Assembly: GCA_030390025.1 (NCBI GenBank)
Contig: CM059432.1
Span: forward strand, 14,200,001-14,264,000
Direction: 5' to 3'
Length of the DNA: 64,000 bases
Origin: Squalus acanthias
Lineage: Eukaryota
In this document: in pieces, positions 1,490 to 62,934 of the stretch
Position numbering within the stretch: the first letter of the stretch is position 1
How the letters are laid out: each line of letters starts with the position of its first letter
Made by a program: the position numbers and the translations under genes
Notes under the pieces: model-generated
The model's input: the letters and a program-made list of their open reading frames with translations, nothing else
Database searches by the model: none
Told to the model about the DNA's origin: nothing

Positions 1490-1590
1490 ATAGCAAAATA
1501 CTGCAGATGCTGGAAATCCGAAATAACAACAGAAAACGCTGGAAAAACTCAGCAGGCCAGGCAGCATCCGTGGAGAGAGAAAGAGAGTCC
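1490..1590 (-). repeat. Penelope-like terminal fragment
   Basis: Same sequence as the 3' end of the GIY-YIG-bearing element at 42154-42799. Confidence 0.7.
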
Positions 1591-9335: not shown

Positions 9336-10291
9336 TGTAGGACGTGCGGAATTACCCCTCGCCCCGTCCAACAGGTTATAGAGGTCGGACTTGAGACTTA
9401 TGAGAAATGACACCAGACACACTGGTTCTGAATTTAACCTTTTATTGTTCCTAAGACAGATTCAAAACTCCAACCACTATTCGAGCAGTCCACCAATAAT
9501 ATTACAGGAAATCATACATACAACCGCCCGCAGATGATCAGTCCAGCGTTGATTGTAGGCCACGTCCTTTCGACTGCAGCTCTTCGCCTTTCGACGATCA
9601 GCCAGGCCCCTCCTTCCGACTGCAGTGCCGATATTTTCCGTCACTGGTTTTTATACAGTTTTCCTTGTTTTTTTCCCCAGTAAATCAATCATTCAGAAAT
9701 GGTGAAATGTTCCTTTAATGTTCGACCTGAGCTGTTTGAGCTGTCAAACGTTCACACTCACACATCCTGTGTCGCTATCCATTAATAAAAACAGAAAATG
9801 CTGGAGATACTCAGCAGGTCAGGCAGCATCTGTGAAGAGACAAACAGAGTGAACGTTTCAGGTCGATGACCTTTCGTCAGATCTCATCCATTATTTGCCT
9901 TTATCAAAGCACAAAATTGTTCATTCACTCATAAAGTTTACAAAAGTGGCAGAAAACCACTTGGTTACAGTTCATGTGTTACGTCGTATTCCGCATTTCA
10001 AAACTTCAAAGGTTTGACTCCTCCCTTTTAGCCTCCAAAAAAAATCATTAGAGACATGATGATGTCTGCAAATCTATGGGGGTTTGTTTATCTCTGTTGT
10101 CTATGAATACCCCCTGCAGTCATAACCATGTTTGCTGCCTTTTAGTAAAGCACATCAAAGCACATTCCATGTCCACTTATCAGTGAAAGACCGTCTGTCA
10201 CAACTTTATTTCACTTCGAAATACCTTTTGGCCTGGCAAAGCATTTTAATATATACCAAAATTTAAAATTAAGGGTCTGTGTATGCCTACA
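9336..10291 (-). mobile_element. Solo LTR inserted in a CR1 3' tail
   Basis: TGTAGG...CCTACA inverted termini; 4-bp TSD GTAG (9332-9335, 10292-10295); minus-strand TATAAAA near 9650 and AATAAA near 9443; removing it restores the CR1 tail GGAGTAGGCCATTC. Confidence 0.8.
9785..9885 (-). mobile_element. Penelope-like terminal fragment with hammerhead core, inside the solo LTR
   Basis: 8-bp TSD ATCCATTA (9777-9784, 9886-9893); minus strand reads CTGACGA-A-AGGTC-atc-GACCT-GAAACGTT. Confidence 0.8.
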
Positions 10292-18669: not shown

Positions 18670-19827
18670 AATATAGGAACAGGAGTAGACCATTCAGCTC
18701 CTCGAACCTGCTCTGCCATTCAATGAGATCATGGCTGATCTGTGAACTAACTCCATCCACCTGCCTTGGCTCCATATCCTTTTATACCCTTGTCTAGCAA
18801 AAATCCATCAATCTCAGGTTTAAAATCATTAATTGAGCCAGCATTTATCGCTTTTTGTGGGAGAGAGTTCCACACTTCTACCACCCTTTGTGTGAAGGCG
18901 TGTTTCCTAACTTCTCTCTTAAATGGCCTGGCTCCAATTTTAAGGTTATGTCCCCTAGTCCCTGACTCCCCCACCAGTGGAAAAGGTTTCTCTCTATCTA
19001 CCCTATCAATGCCTTTTAAAATCCTAAAAACTTCAATCAAATCACCCCTTAACCTTCTATATTCCAGGGAATACAAGTCTAGTTGATGTAATCTCTCCTC
19101 ATAATCTAACTCTTGGAGCACTGATAACATTCATTCTGGTTAATCTGTACTGCACTCTTTCCAAGGCCAGTATATCCTTTCTAAGGTATGGTGCCCAGAA
19201 CTGTACACAGTACTCCAGATGTGGTCTAACCAGGGCTTTGTAGCAAAACTTCCTCCCCTTTATATTCTAACCCTCTACTGTATTTTTGTTATCTGTGTAC
19301 TTGGGCCCCTAAATCTATTTGGACCTCCACTGTACCTAGCTTTTCACCATTTAAAAAGGACTCGGATCTATCCTTTTTTGGTCCAAAATTTATGACCTCA
19401 CACTTTTACCTGCGTCGAAATCCATCTGCCACACTTACGCCCACTCACTTAATGTGTCATCAGCAAACTTGGATATATGGCTCTCTATTGTGTTATCTAA
19501 GTCATTATTAAATATAGTGAATAATTGAGGCCCCAGCACAGAGCCTTGCGGGACACCACTAGTCACTTGCTTCCAATTCAAGTACATACCCATTATCCCT
19601 ACTCTCTGTCTTCAACCGCCTAACCAATCTCCTCGCCAGGTCAATAATTTGCCTTTGATTCTATGAGCTGTAACTTTAGCTAACAGTCTCTTATGTGGAA
19701 CCTTATCGAATGCCTTCTGGACGTCCATATAAACTACATCCATAGACATTCCTCTGTCTACTGCTTTAGTTACTTCCTCAAAAAATTCAATCAGGTTCAT
19801 TAGACATGACCTACCCTTTACAAATCT
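18670..19827 (-). mobile_element. CR1 LINE fragment (continues at 20345-20472)
   Basis: ORFs 18747..19130 and 19612..19875 (GRSCLMNLIEFFEEVT..KAFDKVPH). Confidence 0.9.
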
Positions 19828-20212
19828 AGAATAACAATAGAAAATGCTGGAAACACTCAGCAGGTCAGGCAGCATCCGTGGAGAGAGAAACAGAGTTAGC
19901 GTTTCAGGTCTGTCAGAACTGGAAAAAGTTAGAGATGTAACAGGTTTTAAGCAGGTGCAGAGGCAGGGAAAGGGGGGAGGGGAGGAAAGAACAAAAGGGA
20001 TGGTCTGTGATAGGGTGGAAGGCAGGAGTGGTTAAATGTTGCAAATGGGGATGGCAGAATCATCAACAGCTGCCATGTGGAAAAATAGGGGCAGGGGTAA
20101 TAGTCTGAAATTGTTGAACTCAATGTTGAGTCCAGAAGCTTGTAAAGTGCCTAATCGAAAGATGAGGTGCTGTTCCTTGAGCTTATGCTGAGTTTCATTG
20201 GAACAATGTAAG
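19828..20212 (-). mobile_element. Penelope-like element 3' fragment (GIY-YIG C-terminus)
   Basis: KLKEQHLIFRLGTLQASGLNIEFNNF; homologous to 42154-42799; ribozyme stem II deleted. Confidence 0.8.
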
Positions 20213-20267
20213 AAAAAATTGAGAGGTCGCACAACACCAGGTTATAGTCTAACAGTTTTATTTGAAA

Positions 20268-20309
20268 TCACAAGCTTTCGGAGCTATCGATTGCTCCTTC
20301 CTCAGGTGA
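20268..20309 (-). ncRNA. Minimal type I hammerhead ribozyme (family 2)
   Basis: TCAC-CTGAGGA-A-GGAGC-aatcgata-GCTCC-GAAA-GC-TT-GTGA: conserved core, stems I and II pair. Confidence 0.75.
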
Positions 20310-20624
20310 AGTAAATTAGATACAGAATGTAAGAAGCCATAGCTATGTTGGCTCTCTCTAATCAGCTCAAAGTTCTCTAAGTGCTCAGTCACTCTGTCCT
20401 TAATGATAGATTCCAATAACTTCCCCACAACAGATGTTATACTAACAGGTCTATAATTTCCTGGTTTCTCTCCTAAAATAAAGAGGAAAAGCTGCAAATG
20501 CTAGAAATCTGAAAGGAGAATAAGAAGTTCTGGAAATATACAGCAGGTCAGTCGGCATCTGTCAAGAGAGCAGGCAGGTTAGGATGTTTCAAATGTGTAC
20601 CATTTGGTCATCAGAAGGATACAC

Positions 20625-21407: not shown

Positions 21408-21623
21408 AATAGAAAATAAGAACAGAAAATGCTGGAAATACTCAGCAGGTCAGGCAGCATCTGTGGAGAGAGAAACAGAGTTAATGTTTCAGGTCAATGA
21501 AGCTCTAGCGAAAGGTCATCGACCTGAAACGTTAACTCTGTTTTTCGCTCTCCACAGATGCTACCTGACCTGCTGAGCATTTTCTGTTTTTATTTCAGAT
21601 TTCCAGCATCCACAGTATTTTGC
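21408..21623. repeat. Inverted pair of Penelope-like termini with a degenerate hammerhead at the centre
   Basis: 21408-21500 is the reverse complement of about 21517-21600; centre CTAGCGAAAGGTCATCGACCTGAAACGTTAAC. Confidence 0.75.
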
Positions 21624-29075: not shown

Positions 29076-29820
29076 AGCATTTCCTACTTCTTCTGTGCTA
29101 GCAGCATGAAAGGGACATCATGCAGTCTGTCACTTCAACCACTCACCCACTCCAACGTAACCTGGATCATCTTCTTTGCTGAGCCTCAGTCGCAGTTTCC
29201 AGCTGTCAATCAGCAGGCAGGTCTGGCACTGTTATTCCCCTTCCCCATCCCCCTCCCCTTCCATGAGAACATAGGAAATAGGAGCAGGAGTCGGCCATGC
29301 GGCCCCTCGAACCTGCTCCGCCATTCAATAAGATCATGGCTGATCTTCGACCTCAACTCCACTTTCCTGCACTATCCCCATATCCCTTGGTTCCCTTAGT
29401 ATCTAAAAATCTATCGATCTCTTCCTCTTCTTCTCCCCATCATTCATATAAACACACCATTAATTAGGCAGCTGTGCCAAATGGAATATTTAATATAGAG
29501 AAATTTAAAGGGGCTTAGGGAAAAGGCAAGAGAATGGGACTGAGTGCTCTTTCAGAGAGCTAAGCACAGGCATGATGGGCTGAATGGACTTCTGTGCTGT
29601 AGGATTCTATTTGTCTCTACAATATTTAGGTAACATATTTGAAGCCAATTAACAATTGAAGGATTAAAGGGGCAGTGGCAGCATGGAAGTGAAATTGGCT
29701 ACGAGACACAAAGCAGAGAGCAGCAGTGCACTGTTGTTTTTCAGACTGGAGGAAAGGATACAGTGGTGTCTCCCGGGGCTCGGTATTAGGACTGCTGTTC
29801 TCTTTCATATGTATTAATGA

Positions 29821-30026
29821 TGTGGAGATGCCGGCGTTGGACTGGGGTGGACAAAAATCAGAAGTCGCACAACACCAGGTTATAGTCCAACAGATTTATT
29901 TAATTTTACAAGCTTTCGGAGCTGTTCTCTCACAGCTACCTTACCTGAAGAAGGAGCGAACAGCTCCGAAAGCTTGTAAAATTAAATAAATCTGTTGGAC
30001 TATAACCTGGTGTTGTGCGACTTCTG
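29821..30026. mobile_element. Short inverted-repeat Penelope-like insert (family 2)
   Basis: About 70-bp inverted repeat (29858-29927 vs 29958-30027); flanked by ATAT(G/A)TATTAATGA duplication; homologous to 20222-20310. Confidence 0.7.
29941..29979 (+). ncRNA. Minimal type I hammerhead ribozyme (family 2)
   Basis: TTAC-CTGAAGA-A-GGAGC-gaaca-GCTCC-GAAA-GC-TT-GTAA; stem I covaries with the 20268 copy. Confidence 0.8.
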
Positions 30027-31034
30027 ATATATATTAATGACCTGGACCTGGGTATAGGGGGCAGAATTTCAAAGCTTGCAGATGACGCAAAGCTTGGAAA
30101 TGTAGCAAACAGTGAGGAGGATAGGAGCAGACCTCGGGTGGACATAGACAGACTGGTGAAATGGGCCAGACACATGGCAGATGAAATTTGATGCAGAGAA
30201 GTGTGAAGTGATGCATTTTGGAATGGCACCAGGGATGAGGGGTTTCAGTTATCTGGAGAGACTAGAAAAGCTGGGATTGTTCTCCTTAGAGCAGAGAAGG
30301 GTAAGGAGATTTAATAGAGGTGTTCAAAATGATGAGGGGTTTTGAAAGAGTAGATAGTGAGAAACTGTTTCCACTGGCAGGATGATCAGTAACCAGAGGT
30401 CACAGATTTAAAATAATTGGCAAAAATGGCAGGTGGGAGATGAGGAGAATTTTTTTACACAGTGAGTTGTTATGATCTGGAATGCACTGCCTGAAAGGGT
30501 GGTGGAAGCAGATTCAATAGTAACTTTCAGAAGGCAATTGGATCTCTACTTAAGAAAAGAAAAAAATTGCAGGGCTATGGGGAAAGAGCAGGGGAATGGG
30601 ACTAATTGGACAGCTCTTTCAGAAAGCCGGCACAGGCATGATGGCCGAATGGCCTCCTTCTGTGCTGTACGATTCTATGGGCGAGAAATTCATTATCGCC
30701 TAGGAGTGGGCGCTAACTTTGGAAAAGTGTGAGATTTAGCGCCAGGCGCTAAGAAATCTCGGCTGCACGCAAAATTCAGTGTCATCGCTCAAAGATTGGG
30801 AGCGCTAAATCAAGCGCTAACGGCCTAGCTCAGTGGCGTTAGACTCAAAGCGCTAACCAATATCAGGTGCAGCCTAATCGCAAGTCATCATTGCCACAGG
30901 CTCTTTCCAGTTCTTAAAGGGGAGGTTCATTCATGCTGCAGAACCTCATTCTCAGCGTTGCTGCCTGTGAACCTGTGTCAGCAAGCAGGAGCAGGCCAAG
31001 CCCAAGGAGCCAGACGACTCAAGCAGGTTTCATG

Positions 31035-32924
31035 ATGGCAGATCCACGCCCCAGGGAGAAAGCCCACAGATTTTCTGACCAAGCATTGGAGGAGTTGGTG
31101 TCCGCTGTGGAGAGACGGAGGGCGGTGCTCGACCCGGCAAGTGGCTGGAGGCCCTCGCCATGTGGAGGGAGGTTACCCAGCAAGTCTTGGGCAGCACTGT
31201 GTCCCCAGGACCCACACTCAGTGCAGGAAGAAAGTTAACGACCTTACTCGGGTGGTCAGGGTGAGTCAGTGCCTCAACAAATGCTACATACCACCATCTG
31301 AACCACAGTCTGCACACACTGCCCAAAGCATCACACCCCCAGCACTAACCCACCAACAATCTCCACCTATCAACACTCACACCCACATCTCACACCTTGC
31401 ACACAATGACAGCTATTCAAATATGGCAGGCACATCACCCAAACACATCGCTCCACACTCACTCACACACTTTCCTTTCTCTTGCAGGCCATGGTGGCTC
31501 ACAACAGGAGGGAGCAGGAGCGCACAGGCAGGGAACAAGGCAACACCCAACCACTGTCTGCGCTGGAAAATAGAGTGCAGCAGATTATTGGGCGCCAGGT
31601 GGTGGGTGTCGTGGCCACCGGCGACGTTGACCCCCTTGGGGACAACAAAGGTATGCTCATCCCTTCTCCTTCTTCTCACATCCCATTTCCCCCTCACCCC
31701 ACAAGCATTTCGCACTTTCCAGCTAATCATGCTGTATGCATGCATTTCTCCCTTCCTGCCCCCCTCCCCTCAGCTTAACCCGACTCTTGTGCCTTTATGC
31801 TTTCAGATAATGAGCAAGCGCCTGAGCAGCCTGTCCCTGAGGACATCATAGAGAGCGAGGCGGGAAAAGAGGAGGAGGAAGAACACACCGCGTCACTGCA
31901 TGTCTCACCCGCAGGCACCAGCTCAGATACTGGCACTAGGTGTTCTTTAGAGGCTAGTATAATAGCGGGATCTGCACAGGGTGATGCATCGGGGATGAGC
32001 AGGCTGCAGCAAGGCCAGGGGGAAAGGGTAGCTCAGGGGCCAGCTCCCCAGAGGGCGAGTTCGCGCGTGAGTTCGGCTGCACAGGACTCAGATGAGGACC
32101 TCAATGGGGAGGCCTTTAGAAGAAGGGTGATGGGCATGCACGCGGAGATGATAGGTGCAATGGCAAGGGTGCCTGAGAGCCTGTTGGCCATGGTAAGGAG
32201 CGTGGAGGAGTCCGCCTCCAAATTTGCACAGAGCTCTGCGCACACCATGGAGCCCATCATTTCCAGTCTGCAAAGGTTGGTCGACTCCCAGAGAGGCTGT
32301 GGCGACCCAAACCTGATGCCGTGTGTGATGGGCGATCTGGCAGCTTCCATTGCAGCACAGGCGGAAGCGACGCAACGTCTTAGTGCTGTAATGCAGTCTA
32401 TGCTTGGTGCAATTCAATCTCAGACTGCTCTCCTGCAGTCTCAGCTTGATGCCACGCAAGCTCTGACTGCTGCCATCGTGGCTGGGTCTACCACCATCGA
32501 CCAGGGCTTTCACGGGGTCACAGCAGGCCAGCAATCTGTGCTGCAACAGATTTCTAGTGATGCTGAGGTGCTGGCCTGGGGGAGTGGCAGTGGGTCAGTG
32601 GAGCAGAAACCTGCTGTCCTCTCTCAGGATGACAGCATTCCTGCTCCCACCACTGCCACTCCGCCATTGCCCTTGTCGCTGCCTGTCATCCAGCCAGCCC
32701 AGACTGCTGCTGCCCAGCCTGAGATGGCGCAGTCTACAGCCGGGCCTTCGAAGTCCAGAGCTGGTCGAGGGTGCCCTGCAAGGCCATCTGAAGTTTCCTG
32801 CACGGACACTCAGCAGCCTTCCACCAGCCCTGCTGCAGCCACTGGGCCAACACTTCATAGGAGCACTAGAGTACGCAAAGGCACAGTAACGACAGGCACT
32901 AAGGGATTGCACAAGGGTGAATAG
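31035..32924 (+). pseudogene. Harbinger Myb/SANT-like DNA-binding protein, 3 exons (31035-31260, 31488-31650, 31807-32924)
   Basis: RFSDQALEELV..WREV..RTHTQCRKKVNDL; GT-AG introns with compatible phases; exon 1 frameshifted, exons 2 and 3 open. Confidence 0.85.
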
Positions 32925-42153: not shown

Positions 42154-42799
42154 CCTCTACATTTAGAGACCAAACGCAGATTAGGTGACCACTTTGCGGA
42201 ACACCTCCGTTCAGTACGTAAGCGTGACCCTGAGCTTACAGTCGCCTATTACTTTAATTCTCTGCTCCACTCCCACTCTGACCTCTCCATCCTCGGCCTC
42301 TTACACTGTTCCAATGAAGCTTAGCGTAAGCTCGAGGAACAGCATCTCATCTTTCGATTAGGCACTTTACAGCCTCTGGACTCAACATCGAGTTCAACAA
42401 TTTCAGACCATAACCTCTGCGCATATTTCTTTTCACATGGCAGCTGTTAATGATTCTCCATTTACACCTCATCTAAACTCATCTTTTGTTTCTTAACTTG
42501 CCCCATTACCATCTCCTTTTGCCTCGCACCATCATCCCTTTTTTCTGTTAATCACTCCTGCCTTCCACCCTATCACAGATCTTCCCTTTTGTTCTTTCCT
42601 CCCCTCATCCCTTTCCCTGCCCCTGCACTTACTTAAAAATCTGTTACATCTCTAACGTTTTCCAGTTCTGACGATGGGTCATTAACCTGAAACGTTAACT
42701 CTGTTTCTCTCTCCACAGATGCTGCCTGACCTGCTGATGATTTCCAGCATTTTCTGTTTTCATTTCAGATTTCCAGCATCCGCAGTATTTTGCTTTTGT
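42154..42799 (+). mobile_element. Penelope-like element 3' fragment (GIY-YIG endonuclease end plus terminal repeat)
   Basis: LYI/fs/ETKRRLGDHFAEH..RKLEEQHLIFRLGTLQP; 13-bp TSD ATCTGTTTTTGTT (42141-42153, 42800-42812). Confidence 0.88.
42664..42700 (+). ncRNA. Minimal type I hammerhead ribozyme (family 1)
   Basis: AGTT-CTGACGA-T-GGGT-catta-ACCT-GAAA-CG-TT-AACT. Confidence 0.7.
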
Positions 42800-43174
42800 A
42801 TCTGTTTTTGTTTTCTTGATTGAGGGAGAAATATTGGCCAGGGCACCAGGAATAACTCCCCTGCTCTTCTTCGAAATAATGCCACGGGATCTTTTACGTC
42901 CACCTGAGAGAGCAGACGGGGCCTCGGTTTAAAGTCTCATCCAAAAGATGGCACCTCTGACAGTGCAGCACTCCCTCAGTGTCAGCCAAGTTTTTTGTGC
43001 TCAAGACTCTGGAGTGGGACTTGAACCCACAACCTTCTGACTCAGAGACTAGAGTGCTACCCACTGTGCCACAGCTGACACTGTTCAGTAACTGTTCAGA
43101 GCGTTACGAAAGTTATTAAAAGATGTGATCAAATATAAGAGGGAACATAGAATTACTACAATATACTGAGCCAT

Positions 43175-50249: not shown

Positions 50250-50386
50250 TGTGACTATTAACTGAAACCAGGTTCATTGTGCACAAGGCAGGCGCTTGAT
50301 TTTTGCTTGGATTTTCGTCTGATCAACGGAAGTCCTTGTGGAAGTTAGGTTACCTAACAGATAGTGTCTCTTTAACGTACAGCAGA

Positions 50387-52110
50387 ATGTCGAGTGAAAA
50401 TTTTTATGAAGACTGTAAAACAAAGTTAACGAAGAAGTGCGAGGATGCACAGCTACAGACGTTAGTAGTGGAATGTCTAACAAAGGATAAGAGAGTATCG
50501 TTTGAGGACGTTGTCACGTTCATTGAAAAACAAGTTAAGGAGAAGAGATGGAAGCTAGATAGGGCAGTGCAGCTAATGGCCTATGCGGCAGTGTATTGTG
50601 TAGAACAAGCAATAATACAGCAACAGAGTATTAATGCAGTTCACGCCGGTGCTGCAATGTAGAACCTTGAGGAGGCTCGGTGTCAGGTAGCCTCCTTAAC
50701 AAAAGACAATGACCGTCTTACCAGCCAATTAAATGATTCACGAGGAGCCCTAAGAGAGGCTCTTCAGCGCCCCCAAAGGGAGTTGGACCACAGGCAGTGT
50801 CATATTACTATACAACAGTTGGAAAACCAGCTGGGTAAACAACGGGCTGTAATAGCGGCAGTCACGGGAGTAGACCCCCCACGAGTTATGATAAAGAATG
50901 TGAGGAGTTAAGTGGAGAGCTATGTTCTCCCTTGCTACCCCCTTCCCAAAAGGCCCCCGTCTCATATGCCACCATCGACCTGGCTAAGAGGGCCCCAGCC
51001 TACGCTGATAACAATATCATAAAAACCTCAGTGGACGAGCCTGCACCTGTTGAAGCCCCAGTTAATGTTCTGACTCGCACCCAAGTGATTCCTAACGCGC
51101 CACCAGCTGCTGACGGTGACCAGGCACAAGCAGGAGCACAACCAGCGGCAGCTCACCCGGGAATGCAGTGGGCGGGTACTTATGAACGATCCCAGCCCCT
51201 GAACTATGCAGAACTACAGGCATGTGCCCAACAATTCGGACCAGTTAACCCACAAACATGCCCCATAGAGCTAAGGCAATGTATAGTGGGGTTCCGGAAT
51301 TACCATCCTAATTCTGAGGACAGTGACATGAAAAATGTTATGCTGTCTGCCTTGACTCCGGACCTACGGATCAGTCTCCCATTCATGGCCTTGCATGTGG
51401 GTAACCCCCTGAATAACTTAATCACAACTATACAAACAGCTCTGGGCTTGGACACTATTGATCTGGTTCAGAAATTAAACTAGTCTCAACAAGGGCCTCA
51501 TGAGACCCCTGCTGCATTCGGGGATCGGTTGTACACTGTTTATGAGATGATGCAGGCACGCCCCAATGATAATGTCTTAAATGGGAAGAATGAGGCAGCA
51601 TTTAAGAAAATATACTTAAAGAATATTCAGGCCTCACTGCGAGCAGCCTTAGGGCACACTGTCAGCCACAACTCGCAATGGACAGACCTTTTAAGAGACG
51701 CTGACGCTGCACGGGCCTACACTAAAACTCAGGTTCAGGTACCAACAGCAGAGACGCCAGTGCATGTAGTTGAGGGACCCCAGGCCTCCCCAGCGTCACT
51801 ACCCCATAAGCAACCCTTGATATGTTATAACTGTGGAAAGGTGGGACACTTTGCAAAGGATTGCCGAGGTCCTAGACAGACAGGCTCTGGAGGTGGGAGG
51901 AATAATAATAATTACTCGCGATATGGTCCGTCCCGTTCACCCAATCCAATGGAGAGTAAAATAGACGTCCTAGGCTCGTGTATGGAGAGAATGTCATGTA
52001 TTATGCAAACTCTTGCATCGACCCAGCTGTCGGGGTACCCCGTGGCTCCAACTATGAGCTCGTCATTCCCGCCCCCACCGTTGCCCCAACAACCCAACGG
52101 CCCACAATGA
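50387..52110 (+). pseudogene. gag: gag (coiled-coil N-terminus, capsid-like middle, CCHC zinc knuckle), disrupted
   Basis: CYNCGKVGHFAKDC knuckle; stops at 50660 and 51481 and a frameshift near 50900. Confidence 0.85.
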
Positions 52111-52857
52111 CGGGGTCCGGCCCCACCGGCCTGGCCTGAAGTGGGGTTCAGACGAGATGGCCATGATCGACCGGTGGTCTCAGCTTTGCTGCCTGGGGGC
52201 CGACAGCAAACGATGCTAATAGACACCGGCTCATCTGTTTCAATCCTGCATTCCCCAGACCCTGAACGCCAGCTTGAAATAGGCAAACGTAGCTTCGTAA
52301 TAACAGGAGTCACCGGCGCACAGGCACCAGCATATCCAGGAGAGGAAGTTAGCATTTCCTTTGAGGCCTTCCCCATAAAAATCACTGATCCGTTATATAT
52401 GTGTATGATCAACGAAATGGGAATACTTGGCAATGACACCCTACGGGGAATGACAGCCATTATAGATTACAATCAGAACTGTTTGTGGGTTGAGTCTAAA
52501 CCAGGAGATGTAGTGCAAATTTCAGATGCCCACTCGGTGTTTGCTATAAAGAAGCCTGAGCAGATAGCACTGCTGACACATTCCCTACCTCCGTCTGAGG
52601 GAGAATTATATCCTCCCTTACCACCTCCTCCTACAGCAGTCTATGTCAGCAGTGACATGGAAAAACCCCCGCTGGACAGTTCCGCATATATCGAGAAACC
52701 AGTTAGTGTCCTAACTGGAACTCAAGTAACCCCTAAGTTGCTGAGACGCCAATTTAATAACTTCCATGTCGGTAAAACTTTAGGTTTCTCTCTCTTTTTT
52801 TTTCTTTTTTTTAATGTCTGTGCCGAGAGAAATAAAACACAAGATTTGCTGAGTTAA
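52111..52857 (+). CDS. pro: Retroviral-type aspartic protease, in frame with gag after TGA
   Basis: MLIDTGSSVS active site, ITGVTG flap, GILGNDTL motif. Confidence 0.85.
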   Translation, partial: RGPAPPAWPEVGFRRDGHDRPVVSALLPGGRQQTMLIDTGSSVSILHSPDPERQLEIGKRSFVITGVTGAQAPAYPGEEVSISFEAFPIKITDPLYMCMINEMGILGNDTLRGMTAIIDYNQNCLWVESKPGDVVQISDAHSVFAIKKPEQIALLTHSLPPSEGELYPPLPPPPTAVYVSSDMEKPPLDSSAYIEKPVSVLTGTQVTPKLLRRQFNNFHVGKTLGFSLFFFLFFNVCAERNKTQDLLS

Positions 52858-60568: not shown

Positions 60569-61807
60569 CTATGCAAATCTGGCCAGGATAAGTGCATCCC
60601 TTGCATCTCGGGCAGCCATGTGCTCGCATGCTGCCGCTGCTGCTGGTCAATAGACCGCCGCTCGGTCCTCCTCCTGCTCCTCCTCCTCCTCCTTCTCATC
60701 CTCATCTGAGGAGGCTTGGAGCTGAGCCACTTGCTCATCAGGAAGCTGCAAGCCACGATGCTGTGCCATGTTGTGCAGTGCACAGCAGACCATGACCATT
60801 CTGGAGACCCTGTCTGCTGAATACTGCAGGGCTCCACCTGATCGGTCAAGGCATCGGAAGCGCATCTTCAACAACCCAATGGTTTGTTCGATGATGGACC
60901 TGGTCGAAGTGTGGCTGGCATTGTAGTGCTCTTCAGCCTCGTTAGCTGGCCTCCTGATCGGCGCCATTAGCCACTTCTTCAGGGGGCAGCCCTTGTCACC
61001 AAGGAGCCATCCGTTAAGTTGGTTTGGCGGATTGAAAAGCGGAGGAACACTAGAGTTCCGCAGGATGAAAGAGTCATGACAACTAACACAGAACTTGGCT
61101 CAAACATGTAAAAACTCCTTCTTGTGGTTACACACCAGCTGTACGTTGAGGGAGTGGAAGCCCTTGCGGTTGACAAAGATAGCTGGGTTGTGATGGAGTG
61201 CCCTAAGGGCCACATGTGTGCAGCCTATGACACCCTGCACCATTGGCAAGCCTGCCATATTTGCAAAGCCAACTGAACGCGCGGTTATGCTTGCTTGATC
61301 CCTTGAGAACTGGATGTAATTGTCTGCCTTTGCGAAAAGGGCATCGGTAACCTGTGTGATGCAACTGTGGGCGGCCGACTGGGAGATGCCGCTGATGTCT
61401 GCTGATGATCCCTGGAAGGAGCCTGAGGCAAAGAAGTTGAGTGTGGTGGTGACTTTGACAGCCACTGGTAAGGGGTGTCCACCCGTTCCTCTGGGCACCA
61501 GGTCTTGGTGCAGCAGTGTGCAGATGTCTCGGACAACCTCTCGCGAAAGTCTCAGCCTCCTTTGGCACTGCTGCTCACTCATGTTGAGGTAGCTCATCCT
61601 CTGTCTGTAAACCCTCTGTTGGGGGTATCTCCTGCGGCGAGGTGACTCGATGCACTGGCTCATTCTGCCCTGTGCAGCATCAGGTGGCTGAGCAGGAGGT
61701 TGGGGCTCCTGCTGCTGTTGCTGCTGAGCTGCCTGGTTCTGCTGCTGCCCTGGATGCTCCTCATCCAAATCTGAGGTCCACGGTGAAAGGAAATGAATGG
61801 TTCCCAT
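60569..61807 (-). pseudogene. HARBI1-like DDE transposase, full length but frameshifted
   Basis: [17 protein letters not shown] (first catalytic D reads as G), [50 protein letters not shown]. Confidence 0.92.
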
Positions 61808-62934
61808 GCTGCTTGCCGATGCCTCCGTTGGGGAAGCCCTCATTCCAAGCGGGGAGAGGGTCTTCCAAGGAGGTCCCACAGTTGAGAGATAGAAGCTGCA
61901 GCATCTCCGACTTCGGTAGGCCTGCTAAAAGTGCTGAAAGACCTTTTAAAGCAAAGTTCTGGCACCTGCAACTAATCCCTGATGCAAGCTCCGTTTTAAT
62001 GGTGGAGCTGCAGCTGTGAGGAGGCCACCCACTTGTCAACCCGCCAGGTTTAGCTGGCATGGTTTAGGAGGGTCGTGGAATATGCTGGAAATGTGGAAAA
62101 ATAACGAGGGTCTCTCAAAATAGGATTAGAGAGGCCCTTAACGACCATTTAAGGCTCTTAACAACCTCTTTGGCCTGCTGGAGGCGGGACCGTTTCGCAC
62201 CCAGCAAAACCGCCTCTGGCAAAATTGCACGGAGGCGGGTTGGAGGCGGGTTCCGAACCCGCACTCATTTTTTGCGATTTTCCCACCTATCCCGCCTCCA
62301 AACCCGCCTCCTCGGGGCTGGGAAAATCGCCCCCCACATTTCCAATAATGCAGCACTCCTTCAGTAATGCACTGGCGTGTTAGCCTAGATTATGCACTCT
62401 GGTCTACTGTGGGCTTGAATTTAGAATTGCGGGTATTGTGTATAATTATGGTATATAACACATTGGCTTGCTGTCTGGGAACCAAAAATGAATCTTTTTG
62501 CCTCTGACGTTGTTTTGCTAACTCCAGCCCATCTGTCTCCTCATGTTCTCCTGGCAATCCCTTTCCAAATTTTCCTGCAGACTTATTTGCAAGCACTTTA
62601 TTTAAAACCAGTATTCTTGATGCTACCTGGGGCAAACCCTGCCAGTAAGGGAACTTTTTTAATTACATAACCAAATTTAACAAAACTTTAAAATACTGTA
62701 TGCATTTTATGTCAATGCTTGACATTTTTTCCTCCTGCAGTTCTCCTCTCACTTTCCTCCCCAAATCCCTGACAGTACATGTGGACCATAGTTCTATTAA
62801 AAGGCGGGCCCTCTTGTATCTCAGCCAGTATTCATTCTTCATGGCTAAGCCGACAGCAAGCTATTTGGGGGCGAGGCATTGCAGGCAAGTGCCCGATTCC
62901 ACCTTTAGCTGGTAGTCACACGCAAGCACCTTCT

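What the first reader, a model, noticed from the sequence alone, without database searches (positions are those of the whole stretch)
29821..30026. About 200-bp mobile cassette: intact hammerhead ribozyme inside a long inverted repeat
Seen: a complete core CUGAAGA..GAAA with stem I TTAC/GTAA, stem II GGAGC/GCTCC, an extra A after A9 and a palindromic AGCU in place of stem III. It lies in one arm of a ~70-bp inverted repeat, and the cassette is flanked by a ~14-bp duplication. Known: Penelope-like elements carry minimal hammerheads proposed to cleave as dimers, and often insert with an inverted terminal repeat. Inference: a tiny non-coding retrozyme-like unit whose antisense arm could mask the ribozyme.
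Basis: partly seen in the sequence, partly recalled or inferred. Interest (0 to 1): 0.7.

Follow-up and report, generated by a model that had tools for sequence, protein, structure and literature searches.

The report
Truncated fold-back Penelope retroelement insertion
The hairpin with a hammerhead ribozyme motif is real, but it is the ordinary back-to-back double stub that Penelope-like jumping genes leave when they insert, not a new mobile unit.

Summary
A minimal type I hammerhead lies at 29941-29979 (+), with its cut predicted after 29975. The arms are 71/71 identical (74/75 when extended), and a 10-14-bp target duplication sits inside an old CR1-type LINE. The 'cassette' is two 5'-truncated, head-to-head copies of the 3' end of a high-copy Penelope-like element (PLE). 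The minus-strand copy carries a 36-40-nt tail; the plus-strand copy stops at the tail-less end. Both ends match the two places where public contigs of this family run into mixed flanks, and three other head-to-head joints have other breakpoints. A second copy in the window has no inverted repeat. A homologue follows a GIY-YIG-like reading-frame end in a metagenome contig. This anatomy (inverted truncated copy, one-sided 30-40-bp tail, duplication, dimer-type hammerhead) is published for PLEs. With one whole ribozyme and no tandem unit, it fails the retrozyme test. The antisense arm would mask the ribozyme (about 30 kcal/mol), most likely as a by-product of insertion. The scan has filed this kind before, in this genome and in others. 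Verdict: ordinary.

The parts
29669..29806 (+). Host LINE (CR1 type; family name recalled), reverse-transcriptase region left of the insertion
   Evidence: 70-77% identity to three window paralogues that run on unbroken across the site
29807..29820 (.). Left target-site duplication, AT-rich; 29807-16 is certain, 29817-20 is shared with the element's usual end
   Evidence: 13/14 identical to 30027-40; family loose ends at 29817
29817..29856 (-). PLE 'tail', 36-40 nt, present on this end only
   Evidence: Outside the inverted repeat; contigs end with mixed flanks at 29817 and at 29860; 30-40-bp one-sided tail described in PMC8557442, PMC3846280 and PMC11167929
29857..29927 (-). Left arm: 5'-truncated copy of the PLE terminal repeat, broken off in the stem II loop region; holds only the 3' half of the hammerhead
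   Evidence: 71/71 complementary to 29958-30028; minus-strand print
29928..29933 (.). Inversion junction; a 6-bp mini-hairpin (29920-25 / 29932-37) straddles it
   Evidence: DNA fold -4.6 kcal/mol, z -3.8, 0 of 200 shuffles (the stretch was chosen after the hairpin was seen)
29934..30028 (+). Plus-strand 5'-truncated copy of the same terminal repeat, ending at the tail-less family end
   Evidence: 84% identical over 92 columns to the copy at 20222-20313; another contig resumes at 29934 (table 5)
29941..29979 (+). Minimal type I hammerhead (stem I 4 bp, stem II 5 bp, extra A after A9, palindromic AGCU in place of stem III); predicted cut after 29975
   Evidence: Position map and descriptor; stems kept in 4 of 4 distinct homologues, 2 compensatory pairs in stem I
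30027..30040 (.). Right target-site duplication; 30026-28 also complement the left arm's end
30027..30680 (+). Host LINE continued: IYINDLDLGI...KLADDAKLG frame, then the 3' part
   Evidence: Translation; 70-84% identity to window paralogues
20205..20335 (-). Second, independent insertion of the same family: hammerhead (C3 at 20305), no tail, no inverted repeat, perfect 10-bp duplication 20205-14 / 20326-35

Best explanation
This is a single, dead-on-arrival insertion of an endonuclease-positive Penelope-like retroelement (probably Neptune-like; clade inferred only from relatives) into an older CR1-type LINE. Shown: two 5'-truncated copies of the element's hammerhead-bearing terminal repeat lie head to head, one ending at the tail end and one at the tail-less end, within a 10-14-bp AT-rich duplication. 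Inferred (about 0.55 for this route): the PLE protein nicked both strands 10-14 nt apart. Each 3' end primed reverse transcription on an uncut transcript, one from each of the two reverse-transcription start sites that bound the tail. The two cDNAs stopped about 110 and 95 nt in and were joined in the middle, perhaps through the AGCT/mini-hairpin at 29920-37. The hammerhead belongs to the parent element, where it would work as a dimer or with protein help. At this locus it has no tandem partner, and in a plus-strand transcript it would be buried in a 71-bp hairpin. Silence here is a by-product, not a switch.
For: [quoted passage not shown] High-copy family: 8390, 7083, 1419 and 2056 contigs were laid in 4 of 4 runs, one labelled another organism. 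Loose ends with mixed flanks (agreement 0.37-0.48) cluster at 29817 (123/105/20/55 contigs) and 29860 (72/60/not listed/41), the two ends of this insertion to within 3-4 nt. The three joints of table 5 that link the left arm to the plus copy all have other breakpoints (29852>29942, 29858>29934, 29877>29960 with 34 letters between). The second window copy has a 10-bp duplication and no inversion. In L002 the same hammerhead plus downstream motif (82% over 55 nt) follows reading-frame pieces that match a GIY-YIG-type protein of L003 (E 4e-9 and 7e-6; Atlas 0.97, GIY-YIG on 23-34% of cluster members; relative with RVT_1). In L001 a reverse-transcriptase piece (RVT_1 E 1.5e-5, below the curated cut-off) lies inverted upstream of such a hammerhead. 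PAc cleaves and extends both strands at AT-rich sites, starts at two sites that bound the tail, and uses uncut RNA (PMC11167929). The plus copy holds 22-26 nt that the left arm lacks, so it was not copied from the left arm by simple fold-back.
Against: No reading frame of this very family was found; the PLE link rests on homologues from other organisms (L001-L003) and on anatomy. The duplication has 1 mismatch while the arms have 0 in 71; this is compatible, with up to a 34-45% chance at the upper bound of arm divergence. PAc was reported to start at RNA sites not homologous to the cut DNA, whereas here 4 nt (left) and 2-3 nt (right) of microhomology are seen. The twin-priming route is not tested; self-priming on an antisense template (PMC3846280) predicts the same geometry.
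Confidence: 0.88

Rival explanations
1. Same identity (a PLE insertion) but another route: one priming event at the target, then self-priming or fold-back on an antisense template at the junction palindrome, as proposed by Arkhipova et al. 2013. This rival competes only with the twin-priming step of the best explanation.
For: A 6-bp mini-hairpin straddles the junction. PMC3846280 reports palindromes at inverted junctions and reads them as self-priming.
Against: The right arm ends at the family's second preferred end (29860 cluster), as expected if it was primed there on its own. The plus copy carries 22-26 nt that the left arm lacks, so a plain fold-back of the left cDNA cannot make it.
Confidence: 0.3
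2. One reading: a self-propagating, non-coding, retrozyme-like or MITE-like hairpin cassette of about 210 bp that moves as a unit, with its antisense arm as a regulatory mask of the ribozyme.
For: Intact core and near-perfect arms. Masking is strongly predicted (30 kcal/mol). One listed head-to-head contig has a high mean word depth (293.7, X5), which could mean several copies of one junction, though of another junction. Animal non-LTR retrozymes derive from PLE terminal repeats (bioRxiv 10.64898/2026.07.22.740005).
Against: Only one complete hammerhead and no tandem unit, while retrozymes need two. The second window copy has no inverted repeat. The three other joints differ. The ends are the standard PLE ends. 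Perfect arms are expected of a recent single event.
Confidence: 0.05
3. The fold-back is an assembly or library chimera, or a later rearrangement, and not a product of insertion.
For: No listed contig piece bridges this junction (32 pieces shown, 19,090 not shown).
Against: A target duplication with a continuous host LINE on both sides. The two outer ends equal the two family ends. The 6-nt junction is not a mirror image. Similar joints stand in two independent DNA runs.
Confidence: 0.03
4. The hairpin has been co-opted by the host as a source of small RNA that silences this PLE family.
For: A 71-bp perfect stem if transcribed (-141.5 kcal/mol, z -20). A. vaga Penelopes give small RNAs (PMC3846280).
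Against: It lies inside a decayed LINE in a repeat-filled region. No sign of selection was tested or seen; perfect arms fit youth.
Confidence: 0.03

Closest known systems
Insertion unit of endonuclease-positive Penelope-like elements: terminal repeat (pLTR), adjacent inverted 5'-truncated copy, one-sided 30-40-bp tail, TSD (Craig et al. 2021 PMC8557442, passages; Arkhipova et al. 2013 PMC3846280, passages and Discussion)
   Same: Head-to-head inverted copy, 36-40-nt tail on one end only, 10-14-bp AT-rich duplication, palindrome at the inverted junction, insertion into an older LINE
   Different: Extremely truncated (about 110 + 95 nt) with no coding sequence; no parent ORF of this exact family was seen here
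Minimal hammerheads (min-HHR) of metazoan PLE terminal repeats (Cervera and De la Pena 2014, PMC4209133, parts 1-2 of 4 plus a supplement search)
   Same: Type I; short stem I (4 bp); extra nucleotide between 9 and 10.1; G10.1-C11.1; palindromic 15.2-16.2; mostly single motifs in truncated copies. Pairs on opposite strands 100-700 bp apart were already noted there
   Different: Stem II is 5 bp, against 7-8 bp in the Schistosoma motifs. No shark example turned up in the searched supplement (file 2; file 1 not searched)
PAc, Poseidon PLE of Anolis carolinensis (Frangieh et al. 2024, PMC11167929, parts 1-2 of 4)
   Same: Two genomic 3' ends that bound a tail; AT-rich target; both strands primed; uncut RNA as template
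   Different: Short microhomologies at both primed ends here (4 and 2-3 nt). The tail of PAc lies 111-118 nt into its ORF; whether this tail reaches an ORF start was not settled. The relatives found here look Neptune-like (Cys-rich linker in P0001/P0002; clade feature from PMC8557442)
Animal non-LTR retrozymes (Cervera and De la Pena 2020 PMC7229834, passages; Li et al. 2026 bioRxiv 10.64898/2026.07.22.740005, parts 1-3 of 5)
   Same: Non-coding, PLE-derived, type I hammerhead, TSD longer than 4 bp
   Different: Retrozymes are head-to-tail tandems with a complete ribozyme in each unit. This is head-to-head with one complete ribozyme, so it cannot release a unit-length RNA

Membership tests
Endonuclease-positive PLE insertion | Minimal type I hammerhead in the terminal repeat | tested here: met
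Endonuclease-positive PLE insertion | 30-40-bp tail at one end only; two family 3' ends | tested here: met
   29817/21-29856; loose-end clusters at 29817 and 29860
Endonuclease-positive PLE insertion | Adjacent inverted 5'-truncated copy, head to head, with variable breakpoints | tested here: met
   three other joints
Endonuclease-positive PLE insertion | Target-site duplication in AT-rich DNA | tested here: met
   10-14 bp here, 10 bp at the second copy
Endonuclease-positive PLE insertion | Parent element with an RT + GIY-YIG ORF upstream of this terminal repeat | tested here: inconclusive
   Not seen for this family (no genome held); seen for homologous repeats in L001-L003 from other organisms
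Minimal PLE hammerhead (min-HHR) | Conserved core, extra nucleotide after A9, G10.1-C11.1, palindromic 15.1-16.1 | tested here: met
Minimal PLE hammerhead (min-HHR) | Stems kept by compensatory change | tested here: inconclusive
   36 of 36 cells paired, 2 compensatory pairs in stem I (which was not in the search pattern); only 4 distinct rows, and 26 of 500 shuffles as high. Core and stem II were fixed by the pattern for 3 of 5 rows
Minimal PLE hammerhead (min-HHR) | Cleavage as a dimer or with protein help | not testable with these tools
   Needs a bench assay; the minimum-energy co-fold of two monomers paired stem II in trans, not the AGCU dimer
Non-LTR retrozyme | Head-to-tail tandem with at least two complete hammerheads | tested here: not met
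   One complete motif; the other half lies on the opposite strand
Non-LTR retrozyme | Unit-length linear and circular RNA | not testable with these tools
   Only contigs were offered
Non-autonomous element moving as a fixed hairpin unit | Same junction and ends at many loci | tested here: inconclusive
   Other joints differ and the second window copy lacks the inversion, but this junction would not be listed as a joint and most pieces were not shown

The most novel reading that the evidence does not exclude
The roughly 210-bp fold-back has become a non-autonomous element of its own. A PLE protein mobilises it as a fixed unit through its tail, and the antisense arm holds the hammerhead shut so that the hairpin RNA survives as template: a hairpin 'MITE' of Penelope elements. 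My data do not exclude this, since I could not count loci with this exact junction. A search for such an element in the paper library (4 of 5 terms required) listed 0 papers.
Probability: 0.05. Interest if true: 0.55.

Novelty: new member of a known kind. Interest (0 to 1): 0.12.

Why it matters
As one locus it matters little: it is a clean, tiny example of a PLE insertion product described between 2013 and 2024. Its value is as a data point. How PLEs make head-to-head structures is called unresolved in PMC8557442 and PMC3846280. Micro-insertions like this one keep both primed ends, the duplication and the junction within about 235 bp, and the family is very abundant here. A genome-wide table of their ends, microhomologies and junction palindromes would separate twin priming from self-priming.

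Tried and rejected
Whole-genome search was not possible: no genome is held. Rfam gave 0 hits at gathering score. Its 14 sub-threshold hits are miRNA and sRNA models matching any long hairpin, and I rejected them. A 21-nt terminal-repeat motif found 0 loci in metagenome and viral contigs. The hammerhead pattern found 0 in viral and prokaryote genome contigs and 3 in metagenomes. No RNA holder was listed for the locus; X6 is only guessed to be RNA, so nothing is claimed on expression. Summed contig depth falls over 29929-29937 in all 4 runs (0 in X11), but depth is not copy number and I do not use it. The stretch laid (29740-29980) left out most of the right arm and the right flank, so an empty site could not show as a joint. 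One X1 contig covers 29740-29819 with 3 differences and 19 unaligned letters: an empty allele or a LINE paralogue, unresolved. A tail stem-loop is predicted (9-bp stem, -15.1 kcal/mol) but is weak (z -1.7, 12 of 200 shuffles). Pfam did not recognise the 40-aa host piece, the 35-aa piece at 20104-20208 or the L003 ORF. Lunse et al. on dimer cleavage is not held; I know it only from its title and the review PMC6765202. Paper searches; none listed this family, and most subscription papers and bioRxiv supplements are outside the library. Look-ups of earlier findings by sequence and nearby gave nothing relevant.

Full report
Observation. On the plus strand, 29941-29979 reads as a type I hammerhead: stem I TTAC/GTAA, core CTGAAGA, one extra A, stem II GGAGC/GCTCC, GAAA, palindromic AGCT over positions 15.1-16.1, and U17 at 29975. 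A descriptor for such motifs found 3 hits in the window and none in 200 dinucleotide shuffles. Rfam has no match at gathering score. The inverted repeat is 29857-29931 / 29954-30028, 74 of 75 complementary, and perfect over 71 nt up to 29927. The duplication 29807-20 / 30027-40 agrees at 13 of 14 positions.

Surroundings. The window is packed with LINE remnants and other repeats. The flanks of the insertion are one LINE reverse-transcriptase region, broken at the IYIND motif, which three window paralogues cross unbroken. The label CR1 is recalled, not from a call. That the host is a shark comes from earlier scan notes and was not tested.

Anatomy. Read in the element's sense, the left part (29927 down to 29817, minus strand) holds the 3' half of the hammerhead, an AT-rich stretch, a conserved motif and the 36-40-nt extension. 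The right part (about 29934-30028, plus strand) holds the whole hammerhead and the same stretch, and stops before the extension. The two 5' ends meet in the middle: head to head. A 6-bp mini-hairpin straddles the junction. The plus copy has 22-26 nt that the left arm lacks. Both copies reach 5' beyond the predicted cut, so their template was uncut there, or religated.

The family. A second copy at 20205-20335 (minus strand; 84% over 92 columns) has an intact hammerhead with another loop II and a compensated stem I, a perfect 10-bp duplication, no extension and no inverted repeat. I laid 4 of the 24 listed runs on 29740-29980 (contigs only). 8390, 7083, 1419 and 2056 contigs were laid; one run is labelled a different organism. 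Loose ends with mixed flanking letters (agreement 0.37-0.48) cluster at 29817 (123, 105, 20, 55 contigs) and at 29860 (72, 60, not listed, 41). These are two family ends, matching the two outer ends of this insertion to within 3-4 nt. Table 5 lists three joints from the left arm to the plus copy, each with another breakpoint (29852>29942; 29858>29934; 29877>29960 with 34 letters between that contain a hammerhead 5' half). Of the 5 indel rows, 4 fall in loop II and 1 next to it. No substitution row falls in the core, but diverged contigs are clipped, so this is no proof of conservation. Both arms carry a minority letter at 29859/30026 (98% of X1 depth has the other letter), which fits one donor, though the right-hand letter could come from the target. 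Against my reading: this locus's own junction cannot appear as a joint, and only 32 of 19,122 pieces were shown, so its recurrence was not counted.

Link to an autonomous element. A hammerhead pattern found three metagenome contigs. L002 also shares the downstream motif, which was outside the pattern (82% over 55 nt, E 1.4e-5). About 200 nt upstream of its hammerhead, two frame pieces match the 177-aa ORF of L003 (E 4e-9 and 7e-6). That ORF scores 0.97 with Atlas clusters that carry GIY-YIG on 23-34% of members. It hits two longer proteins (2 of 92 candidates), one with RVT_1 above the cut-off and one with a weak GIY-YIG hit. L001 has an RT piece (RVT_1 E 1.5e-5, below the cut-off) inverted upstream of its hammerhead. 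Across 4 distinct rows all 36 stem cells pair, with two compensatory pairs in stem I; 26 of 500 shuffles do as well, so this is modest support. No ORF of this exact family was seen.

How it most likely arose. Frangieh et al. (PMC11167929; parts 1-2 of 4) showed that a PLE protein cleaves and extends both strands at AT-rich sites. It starts reverse transcription at two sites that bound the tail and uses uncut RNA; its hammerhead cleaves only with protein. The simplest account here is that each side of a 10-14-nt staggered cut primed one cDNA, one from each start site, and the two short cDNAs were joined in the middle. That step is inference (about 0.55). Self-priming on an antisense template (PMC3846280, Discussion) is the main rival (about 0.3). 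Short microhomologies at both ends (4 and 2-3 nt) differ from the 'not homologous' start reported for PAc and may be chance.

The masking idea. Forcing the hammerhead fold costs 30.0 kcal/mol in the full plus-strand transcript, against 0.8 without the left arm; the stem pair probabilities are 0.0 against 0.33-0.46. So the ribozyme would be masked. But such motifs show no cleavage as monomers and low cleavage as dimers anyway (PMC4209133). Any head-to-head PLE insertion that spans the ribozyme gives this mask. Nothing points to selection for it.

Comparison. The inverted 5'-truncated copy and the one-sided 30-40-bp tail are described as typical (PMC8557442, passages; PMC3846280, passages). Minimal hammerheads with the extra nucleotide and the palindrome, mostly single and sometimes paired on opposite strands, were described in 2014 (PMC4209133, parts 1-2 of 4; supplement file 2 searched, no shark entry). 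Non-LTR retrozymes are tandems with a complete ribozyme per unit (PMC7229834, passages; bioRxiv 10.64898/2026.07.22.740005, parts 1-3 of 5; its supplements are closed and may list this family for its one chondrichthyan). This locus fails that test. It works like, and by four tested features is, a PLE insertion unit; the parent ORF remains inconclusive.

Earlier findings. My reading was written down before the look-ups. The scan has filed fold-back and truncated PLE copies with hammerheads as ordinary, in this genome (18 notes fit, 8 shown) and in others. One note says 5' ends cluster just upstream of the hammerhead. The five sense copies I saw with a whole core start 3-20 nt before C3, but the read tool only shows such short cases, so this is a biased sample.

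Verdict. Real, well preserved, and of a known kind. Interest 0.12; new member of a known kind. The bolder reading, a fixed hairpin unit that moves on its own, keeps about 0.05 until the junction is counted genome-wide.

Noticed in passing
window 21414-21595: A second head-to-head fold-back, of another hammerhead-type repeat family (arms 83-89% complementary, 15 nt between): the same anatomy in an older, different family.
   Followed up: partly
window 1492-1588 / 1857-1953: Head-to-head pair of that other family's tails (97 nt, 90% complementary) enclosing 268 nt of unrelated sequence.
   Followed up: partly
window 42664-42710 (+), also near 9880 (-) and 19822-19943 (-): Second hammerhead family, with palindromic ACGT in place of stem III; 10 matches to 42640-42800 in the window, itself included.
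   Followed up: partly
window 20104-20335 (-): The second family copy is inserted into a frame ending ...EQHLIFRLGTLQASGLNIEFNNF, recalled as a PLE GIY-YIG C-terminus (Pfam gave no hit): a PLE inside a PLE.
   Followed up: partly
window 50300-52857 (+): LTR-type retroelement remnant: zinc knuckle (PF00098, E 5e-8) followed by an aspartyl protease frame (PF00077, E 6e-4, just under the cut-off).
   Followed up: no
window 60647-61924 (-) and 31036-32924 (+): DDE_Tnp_4-like transposase frames (E 0.0012, below the cut-off) and a 381-aa low-complexity frame with no Pfam hit; recalled as Harbinger-type parts.
   Followed up: no
L002 493-965: A 5'-truncated PLE-like end sits between unrelated frames in a marine metagenome contig; one of them is recalled as deoxyhypusine-synthase-like. 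Either a chimeric contig or an insertion into a non-animal sequence.
   Followed up: no
window 29740-29819 (X1 record 1): A low-depth contig matches the left flank with 3 differences and leaves at the insertion point: a possible empty allele or a close LINE paralogue.
   Followed up: no
window 29813-29820 (table 7): The loose-letter consensus beyond the tail end shares its last four letters in 3 of 4 runs, so some copies run a few bases further; the ATG there may be the parent's start codon (inference).
   Followed up: no
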